A stretch of DNA of 64,000 bases from Flectonema sp. DT1601 (taxonomy: Eukaryota), in NCBI GenBank assembly GCA_964019425.1, contig OZ025793.1, positions 620,001-684,000 on the forward strand. Direction: 5' to 3'. How positions within the stretch are numbered: the stretch's first letter is position 1; each line of letters begins with the position of its first letter. Shown here piece after piece: positions 38,036 through 62,359 of the stretch. The translations under genes were made by a program, and so were the position numbers. The notes beneath the pieces were generated by a model. The model did not search any database. It was given only the letters and a program-made list of their open reading frames with translations, and was not told the origin of the DNA.

Positions 38036-38982
38036 GCAAAGCGGGACTCTAATAAAATAACTAGCAGTTTTTGAAGATGATGCGACTTTCAGGTGAGAAT
38101 TCGCTAGAAAATAGAGTTCCCTTTGTTGGACAATTCCTTTTTCAACGAGTATCTTCATGCAATCAAATCAAGAAAAAAAAGAAGAAAAAAAAAGAATGTT
38201 TTATATAAAATGATGTGTTTTAATTATGATTTCCTCTCCAGTATTATATTACTAGCGGATTGCAGAAGGCCCGCTTGGCTCATTTTGCTTCCTCTTTCGT
38301 TAATCCCTTTATAAAATTATATACCCTGAAAAGAACAGGGGAGGAATATTATCCTGCAAGGTTTTATTTCTCAAACTCACTTCCTCACTTCCTCACCCCC
38401 TCTTACTGATGTATTGCTCTGTTAGGGTGACCGACGATCACCATGCAACCCTTTTAGTTAAATGGAAAAAGGGGAGGCCTGTCAAGCTTAATTTGTTCCC
38501 TTGCAAGGCCACTCACTCACTCGATCTTACTGACTGTTGGGGTGATCGACGATCACTTGTTTGCCTGTCCCACTATTGTGTTGGTGACGTAGTGCTTCAA
38601 AGTGACGCACCTTTTTAATTTTCTTTTCAATCACCGTGCACCCAACTGCACGATGGTCCTCACTCTACACCACTTTACCCATTACCAACACTCAGAGGAC
38701 GGACAGTATTTACTGAAAGAACAGATCCCCTCTTATTCCTCTCCCTTTCAATATTATGGCAATTTTTTGTCAACGTCTTCTTCTGTGATGCTAAAGTAGC
38801 TTTATATGGTTTGTAATTTTATGTTTTTTCAACTCTAATTTTTCTGGACAGAATTACACAATTTGTAGGTTTGAAAGTCGTTTCTCTCCACTAAGAAGCC
38901 TAGAGTTGTGCTTAGCTAAAAACTGGCTGCATTGTTTTTTAATGTGAGATTTTATATCTTATATTGTTATTGTTTTATTCAG

Positions 38983-41900
38983 ATGGGACATCACAAGATG
39001 GATCCCAAACTAGCCGCGCTGTTTGCGATGGTTGTGTCGATGTCGAGCAGTGGAGCTGTTTGGGGAATGACTCAGATTGTTGACGGCGCTGTTGTTGCCG
39101 CAGTACTAGCTGGAGTAGGTTTTCTTTGGGGAGGCATAACAATTCTATTTTCATATTGGATGGATAAGTCAGCAGTAGAGACAAGAGTAACAACTATCGA
39201 TATTGAACAAGGCCCAACTGTAGCTAGGGCAGACTACAAAGAAGGTTTCCTCAAGCAAGGACTCATTGACATGAATGAAGAACTAGCAGCCAGTACCAGT
39301 GATATAATTAAGGGTCAAAGAAGTACTACCGTATCAACAGAAGAGACATCAAGCTTGCTGCAACAGGTAAGTAAACAAAATTCAATCATTCCTCCAGATG
39401 GTGTTGTTACTGTTGTCTTTACCGACATAGAAGAATCTTCAACAATCTGGAGAAGAAGACCAGAGGCAATGAAAATTGCAATGCGCATCCACAATAAAAT
39501 AATGCGAGACTCCTACGCAGCATTTGATGGATATGAAGTGAAAACTATCGGAGATGCCTTTATGATTGCATTCACATCAGCTAGTTCTGCAGTGAATTGT
39601 TGTCTAAAAGCTCAATTAGACTTACTAAAGGCTGATTGGCCTGAAGGTATTCTCACGGACACTCTCTGCTCACCTGAAAACAACGAAAACGGGGTATTAA
39701 TTCATAGAGGGCTGAATATCAGAATGGGAATCCACACTGGACCAGCTACGAGAGAAATCGATCCAATAACAGAGAGATCTGACTACTTTGGACACACAGT
39801 TAACATGGCTGCTAGAATTGAAGCAGCATCTGCAGGAGGTGCTATTGCCTGCAGTAACGAAGTTCTTCGTGCCCTTGATGCATCGCATGTTGATTGCGAT
39901 ATCACTCCAGCTGGTAAGAAGAAACTCAAAGGAGTTGGTATGATAGAGCTTTCGATATTAAAGCCAAAGTCTCTGCCTAGAAAATGTGGACTTGGCGTAT
40001 CCACGAAAAAGTTAAATGCCACCCCCTCCCCCACACCAATGACACTTCAGGCCCTGTCCCCTGGGGAAGGTGGAAGTGCTAACGAAGCTGATAGAAGAAG
40101 AACTAAAAGATTTCTTCATAAGTTGTATGGAGAGAATCTGATGAGCGACAACAAGATACGTTCTATTGCTACCAGACTTCTCGACTCAGGGGAATTACAA
40201 ATGGTGACAGCGACTGTTGTTCATGTTCGTATTATAAACACGGAATCTGAACCCCTTCGACAGCAAATATCCTTCATGGAAATGTTAGCAGAGCGTACCT
40301 TTGGAATTGTAATGACCTCAGCATGTCCTAATGTCGTAATTGTATGGATGTGTGAACAACATGCTATGCAAGCAGCGTCATTTGCAGGTCTAATGGCAGG
40401 TGAACACGAATTATCTGAAAAGCGATGCACTCTAGGTATGGCTTCCGGAGGTGTTGCTTTTGGAGTTTCGACCACATCGACAGAGCAATACGTTACCTGT
40501 TTGGGAACACCTGTTGATTTTGCCTCTTCATTAGCTGAGGCAGCAGAAATATTTGAGGTGCAGTGTTTAACATTAGCTTCTATTGCTGTTGCTGCCCCAG
40601 CACTTCACAAGCTGATCAGACCTGTTGACTTTTGGCCTATTTATGGTGAATCTGAAACTCACTTAGAAATCTGTGAAATAAATGTTGCGGGACTTATGAA
40701 CGCAAGTAAATGGGAAGTATTCTATGGGGGAGGTGAAGAAACACGTTGGTTTGACATTGATTATATCCCAGCATTTCAAGCAGCTAAGGAAGGAGATATC
40801 ACTCTTATGCGAGAGATCTTAGCAAAGAATCCTGACGATCACATTGCAAAGCTCATCGTCGATGCTGAAGGCAAACAGATGTCTCGCAAAATGGTAAAGA
40901 TAGGAAAAGTTATGTCAGTAAAGGCAGTCGGACAAGAAGCTCTTGAAGAAGCCTGGGTAGCCGCATCCAAAGCTGCAGTACAAAAAGCCAGAAGCCACAA
41001 GGCGGAATTCATTTATATTAATGACCAGGCATATGAAGTTCACGCATTCATGAAGACTCATCCTGGAGGAAAGTCTGTTATTCAAAAGATGATTGGAAAG
41101 GATGCAACGGCAGAGTTCAACCTACACCACGACCACAACAGCAAGGCTCGCATTATAATGAAATCTTTACGAGTAAAGACTGAAGACAAAATGCACAGAG
41201 AACTAACCGTTGTCATGAACACAACAAGTATGTATTTGTTATTAAATTTTAAAAGACGTTGATGGAGAAATGCAAATAAAAAAATAAAACAAAAAAACAG
41301 AAGCACCAGACGTCGTCCTCGAAAGTTGGGAGAACTGCAAGGCCTTGGGTCTCGAAAGTTTTGGTATATTGCTGTACAGAAATTTATTTGAGACAAATCC
41401 TTCTCTTCTCGATCTCTTTCCATTTTCTGGAGTAAAATATTTATATGAAAGTAAACAACTCAAAGCTCACGCAATACAAGTAATGGCTGCGATTGATAAA
41501 AGCTTGAAAGGAATGGAAGAGGCTGCTGAAGTCGTACAAGTATTACACTCTTTAGGAGCATCTCATGCGAGGTGGGGAGTAAAAGAGAATATGTTTGACA
41601 CGTTTCACTTCGCGTTTGATAAAACTCTCAGAATGGCACTCCAAGAAAAATATACTGCTTCTGTAAGGGCAGCTTGGCTTGAAACAGCGCAACTTATAAC
41701 AGATGCGGCAAAGGTTGGTATTAGCCATCATGACATATCTAGTAATCTTCCTGTTGAGTTTAAATTTATTCGTCGTGAAACTCGTAATCACAATGTTTCT
41801 CTGATTGTAATTAGAAGTAATGAAGACTTGAGTACTATATTCGTTCCACCCGGATCTCACATCAGTCTGAAGGTTGGAAATGAACTCGCTAAACAATACA

Positions 41901-42448
41901 GCATTTCAAGAATTATTGGAAACGAATTACATCTCCTAGTAAAGCTATACCCAGAGAAGAAGAGTAGTATTGCATTGAAGAGTCTTGAGCACGGAGATTG
42001 TGTTGTTGTTAGAGGACCGTTTTTATCAGAATATCAAAACCACCATGATAATAAATCATTAGGATTTATTGGTGGTGGTACTGGTGTAGTTCCATTGATA
42101 TCGTTAGCAGCTGATGCGTTGATTGACCCAACAGTTCATGTGACGATTATGTCAGCAAACAGTACTCCTGCTGAGATATTCTTTAATGAGGAGATTGAAC
42201 ATTTAAAATCATTACCTGGAACTTGTACAATCATTCACTTCTTCACAAGGTCAGAAGTTATTGAAGAAACTCCGAAATTTGCTGATGAATGCATCGTCGG
42301 AAGTGATCGCCTCAGACCTGATATTATTGATAAGCATTTCCCTGAGTCACTAACACATTTCGTAGTTTGTGGTCCGGCTACTTTCAACAAATCTGTTTCT
42401 GAAACACTTCGATGTGCTCTTAAACAGTTCACTGTTCTTGGAGACTAA
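38983..42448 (+). CDS. Membrane adenylate cyclase fused to pseudo-cyclase, cytochrome b5, globin and FAD/NAD(P)H oxidoreductase; exons 38983-41227 and 41301-42448 (1130 aa)
   Basis: Two N-terminal hydrophobic helices. Cyclase: VFTDIEES, EVKTIGDAFM, RMGIHTG, DYFGHTVNMAARIE. Cytochrome b5: HPGG..GKDATAEF..H. A 73-nt intron (41228-41300, gtatgt..cag) fuses in frame to the globin (VLESW..LYRNLF..LFPF..KAH..LGASHARWGV) and the reductase (KQYS, VRGP, GGGTGVVP, VCGP). Confidence 0.85.
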
Positions 42449-56251: not shown

Positions 56252-59200
56252 ATGGGGTGCGCAGATTCGAAACCGGCACGTCCTCCTCGTCAGCCAGTGA
56301 CAAAGAGGAAACCGCCGCCAACTGTGAAGCCTCCAACAAAGGCAGCACCTCCAAAAGCAGCACCGGTAAAGAGTGAGACTCCAAGAAAACAAATTGAAGT
56401 GTCGGATGAGAACAGCCCGCCACCGCAACCGGCAAAGGTAGTTCCTGAACCGTACAGAGAGACTCCAATAAAAGAAGTAGAAGTTGAACCTTTCGTAGAA
56501 GAAGAGGAAGAAGAAGAACACGATGATATGACAGGAAGCACATCTTCTGAAGACAGTGAAGGTATTCGTACGATGGGTACCGCTGATGATGACGAAGACT
56601 CATTCTCTGAAGAACTTGCCCCTCCTGCTAATGAAGATTTGATCCACGCAGTCGAACATGGAAAGGCTGACGCAGTTGAAGAACTTCTCTTAAAGGGTAT
56701 TTCCCCAAATGGTATGAATCACGGAATGACTCCTCTTCATAGAGCAGCATTTAGAGTTGAGAAAGCAACTTATCCAATTATACGACTCTTAGTTAAATAT
56801 GATGCTAACGTTAATGGAAAAGATTCATCAGGAGGAAGACCACTACACTCAGCTGCAAGACAAAAGAATCCAGACGCTGTGAAAGCATTGTTAACAGGTC
56901 CTACTATTGCTGATCCATTAGCAAAGAATCGAAATGGTGAAACACCAATTCACACTGCTGCTTCTACTGATAATATAGATACTTTAAGTCGTCTAATTGA
57001 TGCTTGTCATAATACAAAGGATGCAGTCACTTCAACAACATCTTCTGGAAATACTCCTCTACATCTCGCAGCACACCGCGGACGACTCAACTCCGTGTCT
57101 GTGTTAATTGAGCTTCATCGTCAACATCAAGTGACACTCGATCCATTAAATAACGGAGGCTATACTCCAATTCAGGAAGCAGCTCTCGAGGGTCACACGG
57201 CTATCGTTAAGACTTTGAAAGAAGCTGGGGCAACATACGACGTTGTAACCCGTGAAGCTTGCGCCAGAAACAATAGTTCATCGTACCAAATTATTCCAAA
57301 AACATCAAATAATATAAAGAATGGTAAGAAAAAGGCAAGTAAAGCCAACAGTGGTAGTGGCAAGCGATTCAGTGCCGCTGCCAAGAAAAACAGTGAAGTC
57401 GGAATAAAGAAGAAGACTTCTGGAATTACTAAAGCGAACAGCGGAAGTGGAAAACAAAGTGGAACTGGTTTGAAAAAGAAAGCGAAAAAGACAACGAGTG
57501 GCAGGACACCACCACCTCCCAAACTCCAGGAAGTTAGACAGCAATCGAACCAGAATAGTGTTCGGGCTGTTGCTGCATCTCCTGTTATTCCGACTACTCC
57601 TCAACTTTCTAAAACAAACTACAGCAGCCACTCACTAAAGCAGTGGCAGAAGGGACGTACCCTTGGAAAAGGAGCTTTTGGATCAGTCTGCGAGGCTCTT
57701 CTTCGGTATGAAATACATCACAACATTTGTAATAATATTTAATAAGTAAGTTCTAAGGACTAAAATAATAATAAAACAGAGATGGATCCCTTCTGGCTGT
57801 AAAACTCATTCAATTCGATGTCGAAGATAAAAAGGAAACCGAACTCGTAACTCAAGAGTTTGAATTAATTAAAAACTTAAATCATATAAACATCCTTCAG
57901 GTATGTATTTCCCTTATCCAATATCTATAAAGCCTTGCTTTCCTTCCTCCCAAATATGATGATCTACATAAGCAGTCTCCCTCTTCCGAATGGTTTTGAC
58001 GAATACCTGCTTTATCGAACCTAATTACTAAGCCCTGATTGTGTCTTTTATTCTCGTTTTCTCTCTGATTCTATCCGATGAAGATAAAAAAGCACCCTCT
58101 CCGGTCTCAAGGAAACCATGCGAGACACTTGTACAGCTTTTAAAACCCCGTTACCCGTCTGAGGATTTGTTTTGAATTCCCGTCTGTTGTTATCGTTCTC
58201 AACGACAACCTGTATTACGATATGATGATCTACATAAGCAGTCTCCCTCTTCCGAATGGTTTTGACGAATACCTGCTTTATCGAACCTAATTACTAAGCC
58301 CTGATTGTGTCTTTTATTCTCGTTTTCTCTCTGATTCTATCCGATGAAGATAAAAAAGCACCCTCTCCGGTCTCAAGGAAACCATGCGAGACACTTGTAC
58401 AGCTTTTAAAACCCCGTTACCCGTCTGAGGATTTGTTTTGAATTCCCGTCTGTTGTTATCGTTCTCAACGACAACCTGTATTACGATATGATGATCTACA
58501 TAAGCAGTCTCCCTCTTCCGAATGGTTTTGACGAATACCTGCTTTATCGAACCTAATAACTAAGCCCTGATTGACCTTTGAAATCTTTTGTTTTGCCCTT
58601 TTTCATTCACTCCTTTTAACCACTTCCTAGTGTCCTTGTTATCCGATGAAGATAAAAAAGCACCCTCTCCGGTCTCAAGGAAATCATGCGAGACACTTGT
58701 ACAGCTTTTAAAACCCCGTTACCCGTCTGAGGATGAGTTGCTTTCCTGCCTGGTGTTTTTTTCATTTAGTGAATTTAAACTAACTAAACAACAACACCAA
58801 CAGTATTATGGAATTAATATTGATCACAAAAATAGTCAGCTTCAGATATTCATGGAAATGGCTCCAAAGGGTTCTGTTGCATCTCTCGTGAAAAGTATCG
58901 GAGATGCGCTCTCGGTATGTTAGCTTGCTTATTAAACATTCACTCTTAATATTAAAGAAAAAATAAATATGAATTCACAACGCAGGTAAATGTAATTCGA
59001 AACTTCACAATTCAAATTCTTCAAGGCTGCCATTACCTCCACGAGAGAGGTATTATTCACAGAGATATTAAGGGTGATAATTTACTCATAGGTGAGGGTA
59101 ACGTAATAAAGCTCGCCGACTTCGGAAGTAGCAGACAGTTCGACAACTTAGTCACTGCAGGTAAATGCAATACTCTAATCGGGACACCACTGTGGATGGC

Positions 59201-59519
59201 ACCAGAAGTCATAAATCTGGATGGCTCTCAGGGATACAACACGAAAGCTGATATTTGGTCTGTCGGTATCACTCAAATAGAAATGTTAAATTGTGTTCCT
59301 TGGAAGAACGCTGATAAAGAAACCCCTTGGGGGATGTTATTTCAAATTGGTTCTTCAAACAGCGCTCCGAATGGAATTCCTTCTGACTGTCATCCAAAGC
59401 TTCACGCATTCATGATGAGGTGTTTTATTAGAAAACCAGATCTTCGACCTGATGCTGGTGAGCTTCTTTCTGATCCGTTTCTAACATGCCCTGAGAAAGA
59501 CTTAGAATGGTGTTGTTAG
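56252..59519 (+). CDS. Ankyrin-repeat STE/MAP3K-type kinase with MGC acylation signal; exons 56252-57705, 57780-57900, 58804-58914, 58986-59519
   Basis: Ankyrin repeats (GMTPLHRAA, GGRPLHSAA, GETPIHTAA, GNTPLHLAA, GYTPIQEAA). Splicing rebuilds LGKGAFGSV - LAVK - HINILQ|YYG - HRDIKGDN - DFG - GTPLWMAPE in frame. Confidence 0.9.
57956..58038 (+). ncRNA. Candidate C/D-box snoRNA A (copies 57956-58038, 58222-58304, 58488-58570)
   Basis: Box C ATGATGA, D'-like CCGA, C'-like TTGACGA, box D CTGA; 83 nt; terminal stem acga/ttgt in copy 2. Target not identified. Confidence 0.7.
58073..58166 (+). ncRNA. Candidate C/D-box snoRNA B guiding SSU rRNA methylation (copies 58073-58166, 58339-58432, 58641-58734)
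   Basis: Terminal stem atcc/ggat; box C variant ATGAAGA; box D CTGA preceded by ccccgttacccgt, the antisense of conserved 18S ACGGGTAACGGGG. ccctctccgg is antisense to nearby 18S CCGGAGAGGG. Confidence 0.8.
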
Positions 59520-62359
59520 GTGTTAATCTTATTGGGATTCGAAACGTTTTTCGGTACCCTGACCGACAATACAGGACGAATAGCTGTGTCCTTTCTTTCT
59601 ATTTGTTATGTTGATTGACACAGTCGGCTACTATCTTTGCGATTCTTTTTAAGTGCTTAGAAAAACAAGATGCGGACCGGTCGGTACAAAAATTTAAAAA
59701 AAAAAAAAAGATACATTTTTGTTGTAATTTAAATTTAATTCAATTTGATTTCCCTTTTTTTTTTTTTTTTTCAATTCCGTTATTTTTGTTCTTGTCTTAT
59801 GATCTTCTCAGACTCCCTACTAAACAGAAAGGTAACACAATAGTAGCAACCGCACCTACCAACAATATATAAATGACCTTTCTCGCTTATTATTTTGTGT
59901 TTTTCATTTTTAGTTGGCATAGAATCTATCTTTTTTTTTTTTTTTTTTTTTTTGTTAGTTTAGTTTTAGTGGAAAGATTTGTGACATTTTAAAATACCGT
60001 TGAGATTGGTAATTCTTAGATGAACGTATGCATGCCTTCCTCTTATGGTTATTTGAGATGTCAAAGTCTTTGCCTTCCGAGTGTTGCCGTTCTGCAACGT
60101 ATGTTTTCCCCTTTTTTTTTTGCTAGACGAACATGAAACAAAGATCTATATGCCAGTTTTTTACTTTCTTAAAAAAGAAAATTTAAAGTTCATTGTAGAC
60201 AGTCAAGAATATCATTCTTGTTTAAGCGGATTTCATTAACCCTGTAAGGCAATTACAACCTGAGAAGAAGTTAATTTGTCTTTACACTTTTATGTTTTTA
60301 ACCTAACCTAAATGGTCGGATTCATCAGTTAAGAAAGAGTGAATACCTAATATTTTTGTGTGCTATATTTGCAAGATATTACGAACTAACAAAGGATGCT
60401 GTTTTGTCATTCAGTACCCTGGTGATAGTTTCAAACGTCATGTCTTTACTGAGTGCCACGCAAGGTTCAGAAAGTTACTTATCTATGAGCATGTTGTGTG
60501 AGCCCAGAAAGTTTGACAATAGTTTAGTTTTTTTTTTCTCTTTTTTTTTCTGCGAATATAGCATGTTCAGAGAAGAGGAATTTTGCGTTTTTTTTTTTTT
60601 TTTTTTTTTTTTTTTATTGCTGCATTGTCGAAACAGTACTCTTGATAAGATAAAAACGGAAGATACAAAAACATTCTCGAACCGAGAGAAAATGGGTTTT
60701 ACCTTATTGATAAATTGCTTTTTTCGACACAAAAGAAAAAAAAAAAAAAAAAAAGAAAAGAAAATTGTTTTTTTCTCTTTGTTTCTGTTTCTATTAGGAT
60801 GTGAGGAAATAAATACGATCAAGTAAGGATTAGAAATTCCGAGGTAGTATGTTCTCGCTTTTCATTTCAAAAATAAATTTTAAAAAAAATTAAAAAAAGG
60901 GGCTAATCGATTTCGATTATTTTTACCGATTCACTTTAACATATCAGCTACTGAGATGAGAAGGCCAATGTCGGGGTTGGTTGAAATTGGTAGCACCTGC
61001 GTTTTAAAAAAAAAAAATAAAAAAAATGAACTGAACTGAAAAATAAAATAAAATAAAAATAACAAAGAAAATCGCGCTGCTGGGAAGAAGAAAAAAAAAA
61101 AAAAAAAAAAAAAAAAGAGACGTCTCTTTTACCGTGAATAATCTTGGCAGGTCGCCGACCCCATCATTTTAGTAGTACGTTATGTATCTAAATTGCTCTC
61201 GCATCTGCGTGCGTTTTTTTTTCTTTCTTTCTTTTATTCGTCTAACTGCTTTTTTTTTTACATGGTTTGGAGCTCCAGCCAAATCTTATCTTTGTAATAC
61301 GTTTGTTTAAAAAAACTAATTCTACTTTTTTGCAGAAGAGAGAGAAACGCGTCTACTTTAAAAAGAGAGACTGTTCCTGTAAGCGTCTTCGTTGATACGG
61401 AAACTTGATGAGTATCTACATACTTATCTGCTGCGAAAGTTTCCACTATCGAAAAAGATAATTCCACGGGTTGCCTTTCACCATAGACTCTCTGGTGTTG
61501 GTAATCGTTTTTTTTTTTCTTCTGAATTTTTCTTAACTTCTCTTTTTTTTTTCCCCCGCTCAAAAGACTATCACTACCTTTGTTTATGAGCTTGTTACAA
61601 GAAATCAGAGTACGATAAACAAAGATGTACTCTTTTTTTTTTTTTTTTTTTTTTCATTCCCTTTCATTTTCTTTTTTCCCCCCTTTCAACTCTTGCTTTG
61701 GTATTTTTTTTAATTATTTGCATGTAAAAATTTTCCGTTACGTAGTCGACGAGTAGTAACAAGGTTTAAAATAGCAAACTAGTCAATAGTGCTTAATAAT
61801 AGTGTGAAGGCACCCTCTGTTGGTTAGGAAACCCTTTGACGTGGCTTAACGTAACACTTAATAAAAAAACAATCAATCAATTTAGAAAAAAACTCAGCAA
61901 GTAGTAGATAGCAGCGGGAAACACAGATTCTGAAATCTGGGAAGGTAGTTTAGGTTTTAGTTGTAAGTAAATTGCCCGTATGAAAAAAAAGAGAAGTCTT
62001 CAAAAAAAAAAAGAAAACAAAAGAGACGAAATAGAACCCTGCTGGAAATGTTTCCTTTTCCTCCCCTACCCCTCCCCCTTACCCCCTCCCACATCGGTTT
62101 GTGTAATTAATTTGATATTTTGCGTCGATTTGGAAAATACAAGCGAAGCAGTGAAGGAATAAAAGGTTAAGTTTGGGCATCACGAATGCCTGTCAGTGAT
62201 ACCCGTAGATATCATAGTTAAACGTTCTTCTAAGTTACGAATTACTCACAACAGACATATAAAATGGTTTTGGATAAGTGGCCACTCTCTTACAGGCAGT
62301 AGATAGTAGTAGCTGTAAACCTATATCGTCTAACAGGTTATCAAAAAATATTTAAAAAT

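What the first reader, a model, noticed from the sequence alone, without database searches (positions are those of the whole stretch)
57901..58803. Tandem cluster of C/D-box snoRNA candidates hidden in a kinase intron
Seen: the 266-bp intronic repeat resolves into two alternating blocks (A-B x3), each bounded by box C and box D. In unit 3 the A-B spacer is replaced while both blocks stay almost identical right up to their box/terminal-stem edges, as expected for selection on RNAs. Block B has 13 nt complementary to conserved 18S ACGGGTAACGGGG directly before CTGA; the D+5 rule predicts 2'-O-methylation of the third G of ACGGG. It has a second 10-nt match to neighbouring CCGGAGAGGG. Established: trypanosomatid and Euglena snoRNAs form tandem polycistronic clusters. 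Inference: here such a cluster is intron-hosted, which would need endonucleolytic processing of the intron.
Basis: partly seen in the sequence, partly recalled or inferred. Interest (0 to 1): 0.72.

Follow-up and report, generated by a model that had tools for sequence, protein, structure and literature searches.

The report
Six snoRNA genes in kinase intron
One intron of a kinase gene from a diplonemid-like marine protist holds three tandem pairs of box C/D-type sequences that match one short stretch of 18S ribosomal RNA; they likely encode small guide RNAs predicted to methylate it, a layout known from plants and green algae that I did not find described for this protist group.

Summary
Observation confirmed and extended. 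57901-58803 is a true GT-AG intron: its flanking exons match consecutive residues (562-601, 602-636) of a Diplonema papillatum ankyrin-MAP3K. It holds (A-B)x3, each block 83-85 nt from box C to box D.

Block B has a 13-nt antisense element abutting box D; 0 of 578 other CTGA sites in the window exceed 10 nt. It keeps the D' guide for the G436 (human)/G392 (Arabidopsis) site and an extra pairing element. B has no Rfam family and predicts sites 31 and perhaps 4 nt further 5'.

A public run holds a head-to-tail A-B cassette with near-identical blocks (at most 4 of 182 letters differ) but changed spacers.

Not shown: expression, methylation, the organism's own 18S, and release from the intron. No conserved spacer hairpin was found. 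Intronic snoRNA clusters are known in plants and Chlamydomonas, so this is a known layout in a new lineage.

The parts
56252..57705 (+). Host gene, first coding exon as predicted (ankyrin repeats, start of kinase domain) of an ankyrin-MAP3K
   Evidence: Pfam Ank; aligns from residue 1 to 560 of D. papillatum P0127, 29% identity, E 5e-49
57706..57779 (+). 74-nt GTATG..CAG intron
   Evidence: reading frame
57780..57900 (+). Exon upstream of the cluster intron
   Evidence: matches P0127 residues 562-601, 68%
57901..58803 (+). 903-nt spliceosomal intron hosting the cluster; candidate branch point CTAAC at 58780-58784
57952..58041 (+). snoRNA A copy 1 (snoR30/SNORD100-like): box C 57956-57962, D' guide 57973-57985, D' CCGA 57986-57989, C' TTGACGA 57996-58002, extra-pairing element 58014-58026, box D 58035-58038
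   Evidence: Rfam RF00046 alignment, 22.3 bits, E 0.043; boxes; targets
58073..58166 (+). snoRNA B copy 1: 4-bp terminal stem, box C ATGAAGA 58078-58084, 10(+2)-nt antisense element 58092-58104, candidate D' CTCA 58106-58109, candidate C' 58118-58124, 13-nt D guide 58146-58158, box D 58159-58162
58216..58309 (+). snoRNA A copy 2 (5-bp terminal stem in k-turn register)
   Evidence: Rfam RF00046 24.6 bits, E 0.0095
58339..58432 (+). snoRNA B copy 2, identical to copy 1
58482..58573 (+). snoRNA A copy 3 (one change, 58558)
58574..58638 (+). Replaced A-B spacer of unit 3 (76% pyrimidine, no significant fold)
58639..58736 (+). snoRNA B copy 3 (6-bp terminal stem; box D ends 73 nt before the 3' splice site)
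58804..58914 (+). Exon downstream of the cluster intron
   Evidence: matches P0127 residues 602-636, 70%
58986..59519 (+). Last coding exon (kinase HRD to C-terminus), after the 71-nt intron 58915-58985
   Evidence: 75% identity to P0127, best hit

Best explanation
The 903-nt kinase intron carries three tandem copies of a two-gene cassette whose blocks have box C, box D and antisense elements to one 44-nt stretch of 18S rRNA; they likely encode box C/D snoRNAs predicted to guide 2'-O-methylation there, and they would be cut out of the host intron. Shown: intron, boxes, stems, complementarity to eukaryotic SSU including a probable diplonemid one, conservation of blocks against spacers. Inferred: A uses its D' guide on the G equivalent to human Gm436/Arabidopsis Gm392 (the snoR30/SNORD100 site), helped by an extra element pairing just 5' of that site. 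B uses its 13-nt D guide on the G 31 nt further 5' (human G405 equivalent by counting). B's 10-nt element either guides the G 4 nt 5' of the A site through a divergent CUCA D' box or is an accessory pairing. Biogenesis (inferred, about 60%): co-transcription with the kinase pre-mRNA, snoRNP assembly, cuts in the unstructured pyrimidine-rich spacers and exonucleolytic trimming to the protein-protected ends. Copies are kept alike by tandem duplication or gene conversion.
For: Exon colinearity with P0127. Boxes and 2-6 bp stems in k-turn register in all six copies. 13-nt D guide, null 0 of 578 sites above 10 nt. A pattern made of B's two elements retrieved 40 loci; 16 of 16 tested are eukaryotic-type SSU rRNA (15 SSU_rRNA_eukarya, 1 microsporidian model); the gap between the elements is the same in all 40. 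27 of those 40 also carry the perfect 8-nt complement of A's extra element, which was not in the pattern (counted by eye). A aligns to snoR30 in register over D' guide, D', C' and the extra element. snoR30 Gm390 = HBII-429/SNORD100 Gm436 (PMC3511168 table; PMC8583080 table). HBII-429 is listed among snoRNAs with conserved extra base-pairing, and divergent D' boxes can be active (PMC3116282 passages). Run X2: A 0 and B 3 listed differences (1 more unlisted) in 182 nt, against 19 substitutions, 9 deleted letters and 1 inserted in the 66-nt spacer, and a different B-A spacer (Fisher p 8e-15). Diplonemids encode fibrillarin (PMC10161547 supplement row).
Against: No RNA evidence of any kind. Rfam score 24.6 bits is far below the 60-bit cut-off. 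A's D' duplex with the probable diplonemid SSU is only 8 Watson-Crick pairs, then a mismatch, then 3 more. A's D guide has no convincing SSU target (6 nt; LSU and snRNAs not tested). B's D'/C' are divergent. The organism's own 18S was not obtained. No B homologue was found in viral or metagenome scans (all 6 hits lack the other snoRNA elements). X2 was found because it shares words with the blocks, its organism and molecule type are coded or unknown, and it does not cover the kinase exons. No spacer fold is significant (z from -1.39 to 0.33), so no cleavage signal is identified.
Confidence: 0.8

Rival explanations
1. The snoRNA genes are real but are not processed from the kinase intron: they form their own transcript (internal start site, or the run-through polycistronic transcription of euglenozoans followed by separate processing), and the intron is only the place where a mobile cassette landed.
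For: X1 and X2 hold the cassette as closed head-to-tail units without kinase exons, so larger arrays elsewhere or a longer array are possible. A TATAAA lies at 57926, 30 nt before box C of A1. A signalling kinase is an unusual host. D. papillatum genes are described as co-transcribed in groups (PMC10161547 abstract).
Against: TATAAA occurs 68 times in the window, so it is no evidence. The cluster is on the sense strand, fills the intron between intact splice sites, and the last box D lies 73 nt from the 3' splice site and about 50 nt from the candidate branch point, close to the spacing I recall for vertebrate intronic C/D snoRNAs. Missing exons in X1/X2 can reflect low coverage.
Confidence: 0.2
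2. The excised intron is only trimmed at its two ends and persists as long multi-snoRNA RNAs (or only the outer copies mature), so no endonuclease is needed.
For: No conserved hairpin or motif in the spacers. Long stable multi-snoRNA products of clusters are reported in Ostreococcus (PMC7671301 passage).
Against: Every copy keeps its own terminal stem, also in X2 (from the listed differences and loose ends), which fits selection on single mature RNAs. Euglenozoan clusters are processed to single snoRNAs (recalled).
Confidence: 0.08
3. The blocks are not guides but decayed inverted rDNA fragments or a satellite that resembles boxes by chance.
For: The antisense pieces in A and B lie in the same order as in antisense 18S. 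The D. papillatum genome holds about 3600 scattered 28S fragments (PMC10161547 passage). Units 1 and 2 are identical including spacers, so they carry no information on selection.
Against: The matches are short, interrupted by boxes and placed at D+5 registers. The plant snoR30 consensus has the same elements in the same order. Blocks stay 98% identical while both spacers change in X2. No Rfam rRNA match in the intron.
Confidence: 0.04
4. The genes are snoRNAs, but B (and A's extra element) act mainly as folding chaperones that hold this 18S stretch open during small-subunit assembly, with methylation secondary or absent at B's sites.
For: Four elements, five pairing segments, cover most of one 44-nt stretch. 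B's sites are not among the Arabidopsis 18S sites in the table passage seen (consecutive rows Gm246, Gm392, Cm418). Several trypanosome C/D snoRNAs both methylate and affect processing (PMC6411936 passages).
Against: B's 13-nt element abuts a perfect box D, the standard guide geometry. Lineage-specific methylation sites are common in Euglenozoa (Euglena has 349 modifications; PMC7672448 passage).
Confidence: 0.1

Closest known systems
Plant snoR30/Z108 (Rfam RF00046) and vertebrate SNORD100/HBII-429 (RF00609), clan CL00073, guiding 18S Gm390-392 / Gm436 (PMC3511168 table passage; PMC8583080 table passage)
   Same: Block A has the same D' guide register, a C' box at the same place and the ATCGAACC element of the snoR30 consensus; it predicts the same G.
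   Different: 24.6 bits against a cut-off of 60; D' is CCGA; one guide position differs and would mismatch the common SSU letter; the 3' part is 4 nt shorter; three tandem copies inside a kinase intron.
Intronic snoRNA gene clusters of Arabidopsis (PMC2875012, table passages) and Chlamydomonas (Chen et al. 2008, title seen in reference lists only); rice and Drosophila clusters recalled
   Same: Several snoRNA genes or variants head to tail in one intron of a protein-coding gene, including non-ribosomal hosts.
   Different: Here a repeated heterodimer of two C/D genes, in a euglenozoan; the Arabidopsis intronic clusters in the passages seen are H/ACA variants of one gene each.
Tandem, polycistronic snoRNA clusters of Euglena gracilis and trypanosomatids (Moore and Russell 2012, paper not held; described second-hand in PMC7671301 and PMC2784804 passages)
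   Same: Repeated multi-gene cassette, near-identical isoforms, short spacers, same phylum.
   Different: Here the cassette lies in a cis-spliced intron. Trypanosomatids have cis-introns in only 2-3 genes (PMC11613528 abstract and passages). I could not check whether the Euglena paper reports intronic clusters.
Extra base-pairing C/D snoRNAs (van Nues et al. 2011, PMC3116282, passages)
   Same: A second conserved element complementary to rRNA next to the methylation site; HBII-429 is on their list.
   Different: Their alignment for HBII-429 is in a supplement I did not see, so I cannot say that the human element pairs to the same bases.

Membership tests
Box C/D methylation-guide snoRNA | Box C (RUGAUGA) near the 5' end | tested here: met
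   A: ATGATGA; B: one-letter variant ATGAAGA, kept in X2
Box C/D methylation-guide snoRNA | Box D (CUGA) near the 3' end, 60-110 nt from box C | tested here: met
   C to D span 83 nt (A) and 85 nt (B) in all six copies
Box C/D methylation-guide snoRNA | Terminal stem closing a kink-turn | tested here: met
   2, 5, 3 bp (A1-A3) and 4, 4, 6 bp (B1-B3) in the stem/NRU/GA register; A1 is weak
Box C/D methylation-guide snoRNA | Antisense element of about 10-21 nt directly before D or D' | tested here: met
   B D guide 13 nt in 7 of 7 SSU references, which were selected for it; null 0 of 578 above 10 nt. A D' guide 8+3 pairs is at the short end
Box C/D methylation-guide snoRNA | Internal C'/D' motif | tested here: inconclusive
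   A: CCGA/TTGACGA align with snoR30 D'/C'. B: CTCA and ATGCGAG are only candidates
Box C/D methylation-guide snoRNA | Complementarity in the organism's own rRNA | tested here: inconclusive
   Met for a probable diplonemid SSU (L037; assignment rests on two recalled diplonemid primer sites); the organism's own SSU was not obtained
Box C/D methylation-guide snoRNA | Stable small RNA bound by fibrillarin/Nop56/Nop58/Snu13; methylation at D+5 | not testable with these tools
   needs RNA data or experiments
snoR30 / SNORD100 clan CL00073 (block A) | Rfam gathering score | tested here: not met
   24.6 bits vs 60, E 0.0095; so 'snoR30-like functional counterpart', not a filed member
snoR30 / SNORD100 clan CL00073 (block A) | D' guide for the Gm390/Gm436 site | tested here: met
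   in-register alignment with the snoR30 guide and D'; D+5 on the same G in 7 of 7 references
Intronic polycistronic snoRNA cluster | Two or more snoRNA genes within one spliceosomal intron, sense strand | tested here: met
Intronic polycistronic snoRNA cluster | RNAs processed from the host pre-mRNA by endonucleolytic cuts and trimming | not testable with these tools
   no raw RNA reads available; no conserved spacer structure
Any Rfam family (block B) | Covariance-model match | tested here: not met
   no snoRNA family matches B at E up to 10; the only row over B3 is an unrelated lncRNA model at E 0.92

The most novel reading that the evidence does not exclude
Euglenozoans with introns release methylation guides from tandem cassettes hosted in cis-spliced introns of ordinary genes, using a structure-independent cut in the spacers. 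This A-B cassette is a mobile, concertedly evolving module that joins a eukaryote-wide snoR30/SNORD100-type guide (with its extra-pairing element kept from plants to Discoba) to an undescribed double guide, and the two together remodel and methylate one 44-nt stretch of 18S rRNA.
Probability: 0.3. Interest if true: 0.6.

Novelty: new member of a known kind. Interest (0 to 1): 0.42.

Why it matters
It gives concrete, testable methylation-guide snoRNAs and three predicted 18S methylation sites for diplonemids, an abundant marine lineage for which my searches found no snoRNA description (0 'snoRNA' in the main texts of PMC10161547 and PMC12621601; the D. papillatum supplement on structural RNAs could not be read). 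It suggests that the snoR30/SNORD100 site and its extra-pairing element reach into Discoba. It also offers a compact 903-nt substrate for asking how a euglenozoan frees several snoRNAs from one cis-intron without a conserved RNase III-type hairpin. The gene layout itself is known from plants and green algae.

Tried and rejected
Rfam at gathering score over the whole window: 0 hits. Weak snoR126, snR61 and NPPA-AS1 rows rejected: shifted or partial, E 0.095-3.8.

No whole genome is held, so other copies and the organism's rRNA could not be searched. No 14-mer of A or B occurs elsewhere in the window.

Run search: no RNA holder listed; 2 runs with small shares, both laid. Neither covers the kinase exons, which proves nothing about absence. 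The organism's own 18S letters at the target remain open.

B homologue scans: viral contigs 4 hits, none with the upstream elements; metagenome contigs 2 hits, both inside long reading frames, without the other elements and without a Rfam match; all taken as chance. Target pattern in viral contigs 0. Kinase exon in viral contigs 0.

A-B paralogy (B as a shifted duplicate of A): global alignment score reached by 451 of 2000 shuffles, and 702 of 2000 with the shared guide masked; not supported. RNase III-type hairpins in spacers: none significant. TATAAA at 57926: chance level. A's D guide: only a 6-nt SSU match at an unrelated place; LSU and snRNA targets not tested. RNase III, debranching enzyme and exoribonuclease terms in the diplonemid gain/loss tables: 0 rows, uninformative.

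Literature: Moore and Russell 2012, Chen et al. 2008, Liang et al. 2005 and a trypanosome methylation-mapping paper are not held. The Euglena ribosome supplement and Additional file 1 of PMC10161547 were too large. So I could not check whether B's sites are methylated in Euglena or trypanosomes, or whether diplonemid snoRNAs are listed there. A search for the diplonemid primer name found 0 papers, and the primer letters were not in two papers searched, so L037's assignment stays recalled.

Full report
Host gene and lineage. The interval 57901-58803 starts GTATGT and ends CAG. Removing it together with the 74-nt and 71-nt GTATG introns on either side gives a kinase domain whose only stop is the last codon. 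The exon before it matches residues 562-601 and the exon after it residues 602-636 of a Diplonema papillatum ankyrin-MAP3K, so the intron limits are fixed independently of the snoRNA reading. That protein is the best hit for the last exon (75%) and also aligns with the first exon from residue 1. The best named non-self hit for the window's GrpE is from Namystynia karyoxenos. GTATG is the 5' splice consensus of three diplonemid species (PMC12621601 passage). I therefore treat the window as diplonemid (Euglenozoa).

Repeat anatomy. The intron is 53 nt of leader, then A-30 nt-B, a spacer of about 50 nt, the same unit again, then A-66 nt-B and 69 nt of trailer. Units 1 and 2 are identical over 266 nt and so say nothing about selection. 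The informative comparison is unit 3 and the array ends: A1/A3 and B1/B3 differ by one letter each, while similarity ends 2-6 nt outside the boxes. All six copies have box C (ATGATGA in A, ATGAAGA in B), box D 83 or 85 nt downstream, and a 2-6 bp terminal stem in kink-turn register. The last box D ends 73 nt before the 3' splice site; the only YTRAY motif in the last 50 nt is at 58780.

Targets. A pattern made of the reverse complements of B's two elements, separated by a free gap, found 40 loci among prokaryotic assemblies. The 16 tested are all eukaryotic-type SSU rRNA, that is contaminating 18S. Because the references were selected with B, the test is the null: 0 of 578 other CTGA sites in the window have more than 10 nt of upstream complementarity to three of these SSUs. 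A run of 13 or more anywhere in a shuffled B arose in 10 and 6 of 3000 shuffles, and three runs of 8 or more within 45 nt of target in 62 and 73 of 3000. One locus, L037, is probably a diplonemid 18S: it contains the sites of two diplonemid-specific primers that I recall from Lara et al. 2009 but could not verify. It carries all target elements.

Block A has a target. At E-value threshold Rfam aligns all three A copies to plant snoR30 (best 24.6 bits, E 0.0095; cut-off 60). The alignment puts A's CTCCCTCTT-CCGA on snoR30's D' guide and D' box, TTGACGA on its C' box, and ATCGAACC on the same element in the plant consensus. snoR30 guides Arabidopsis 18S Gm390/392, equal to human Gm436 guided by HBII-429/SNORD100, both in clan CL00073 (PMC3511168 table passage; PMC8583080 table passage). 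A's D' duplex is 8 Watson-Crick pairs, one mismatch and 3 more pairs. The ATCGAACC(TAATT) element is complementary to the bases just 5' of that site; 27 of the 40 SSU loci have its perfect 8-nt complement (counted). This fits the extra base-pairing of van Nues et al., who list HBII-429 and report that short guides tend to have such elements and that divergent D' boxes work (PMC3116282 passages). A's D guide has no convincing SSU target.

Block B has no Rfam family. Its D target lies 31 nt 5' of the A site (human G405 by counting). If CTCA is a D' box, its second target lies 4 nt 5' of the A site (G432). Neither equivalent is among the Arabidopsis sites in the table rows seen; I could not see Euglena or trypanosome maps. 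B is not demonstrably a paralogue of A. No homologue came from the viral or metagenome scans.

Independent conservation. Two public runs share words with the region. Laid on 58438-59600, X1 gives a 296-nt contig that is the 266-nt unit closed on itself, with the spacers of units 1-2. X2 gives a 301-nt contig, also closed on itself as read from its loose ends (unit 271 nt). In X2 block A has no listed difference and block B three, none in a box or guide; one further difference is not listed. The A-B spacer has 19 substitutions, 9 deleted letters and 1 inserted in 66 nt, and the B-A spacer is an unrelated 31-nt pyrimidine-rich stretch. Fisher p is 8e-15 with the unlisted letter counted against the blocks. 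This is the strongest sign of selection on the two blocks as RNAs, and it shows the A-B order kept as a tandem cassette in a second source. Limits: the run was found through those blocks, its organism is coded, and neither run covers the exons, so an intronic place is shown only in the window. A closed unit without flanks hints at more than three copies in those samples; that is inference.

How it likely works. The cassette is transcribed with the kinase pre-mRNA; Snu13, Nop56/58 and fibrillarin (fibrillarin is present in diplonemid gene tables) assemble on each C/D motif; the spacers are cut and trimmed back; the snoRNPs methylate the A site, B's D site and perhaps B's D' site in the 5' domain of 18S (helices 11-13; numbering recalled). 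If all six copies mature, internal cuts are needed, because exonucleases acting on a debranched intron reach only the two outer ends. No spacer folds better than its shuffles and X2's spacers share no hairpin, so a conserved Rnt1-type signal is unlikely and the nuclease is unidentified. My odds: real snoRNA genes about 0.93; the B-D and A-D' sites right about 0.85; release from the intron as single RNAs about 0.6-0.7.

What is known. Intronic clusters of snoRNA variants are tabulated for Arabidopsis (PMC2875012 passages) and named in the title of the Chlamydomonas survey (reference lists). Euglena and trypanosomatid snoRNA genes are clustered and polycistronic (PMC7671301 and PMC2784804 passages). 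Searches for diplonemid or Diplonema with snoRNA gave 7 and 12 papers, none on diplonemid snoRNAs by title or abstract start, and 'snoRNA' does not occur in the main texts of the D. papillatum genome paper or the diplonemid intron paper. The supplement section on structural RNAs was unreadable and may bear on this. Two unchecked notes from this scan describe tandem snoRNA cassettes in introns of a Euglena-like genome; if right, the layout is wider in Euglenozoa and less special here.

What I saw of each paper. Keyword passages: PMC11613528, PMC3511168, PMC8583080, PMC2784804, PMC3116282, PMC2875012, PMC6411936, PMC7672448, PMC8209450, PMC10910464. Abstract, outline and passages: PMC12621601. 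Passages and section 24: PMC7671301. Passages and searches of 7 supplementary files: PMC10161547. Nothing (recalled or title only): Moore and Russell 2012, Chen et al. 2008, Liang et al. 2005, Lara et al. 2009, rice and Drosophila clusters, vertebrate spacing rule.

Verdict. A real and well-supported pair of box C/D snoRNA genes, tripled inside a kinase intron of a diplonemid. A works like snoR30/SNORD100 but fails the Rfam cut-off; B is an unassigned guide. Known kind of RNA and known kind of layout, new for the lineage as far as I could search. Interest 0.42.

Noticed in passing
window 16004-38035: Five tandem copies (4.5-4.7 kb apart) of an intronless gene of 1100-1200 codons: signal-peptide-like start, weak GH18 (chitinase-like) match (E 0.0024, below cut-off), long Pro/Thr/Glu repeats that vary in number between copies, Cys-rich part and a hydrophobic stretch near the C-terminus. 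Looks like a surface protein family.
   Followed up: partly
window 41288-42448: Flavohaemoglobin (globin + FAD + NAD domains), next to an adenylate/guanylate cyclase with a cytochrome b5-like domain (38920-41262). Origin not checked.
   Followed up: no
window 6293-9664: Protein kinase with a weak Cache-domain match, receptor-like.
   Followed up: no
L016: A euglenozoan-looking 18S with a one-letter variant that makes block B's upstream element a perfect 13-nt match but shortens A's D' duplex to 6 nt. Shows that this site varies and that the organism's own 18S matters.
   Followed up: partly
L001-L040: Prokaryotic genome records in the genome collection carry eukaryotic 18S contigs (16 of 16 tested): contamination.
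   Followed up: partly
runs X1, X2 on window 58438-58734: Both hold the A-B cassette as a closed head-to-tail unit (266 and 271 nt) without flanks, hinting at higher copy number or a collapsed array.
   Followed up: partly
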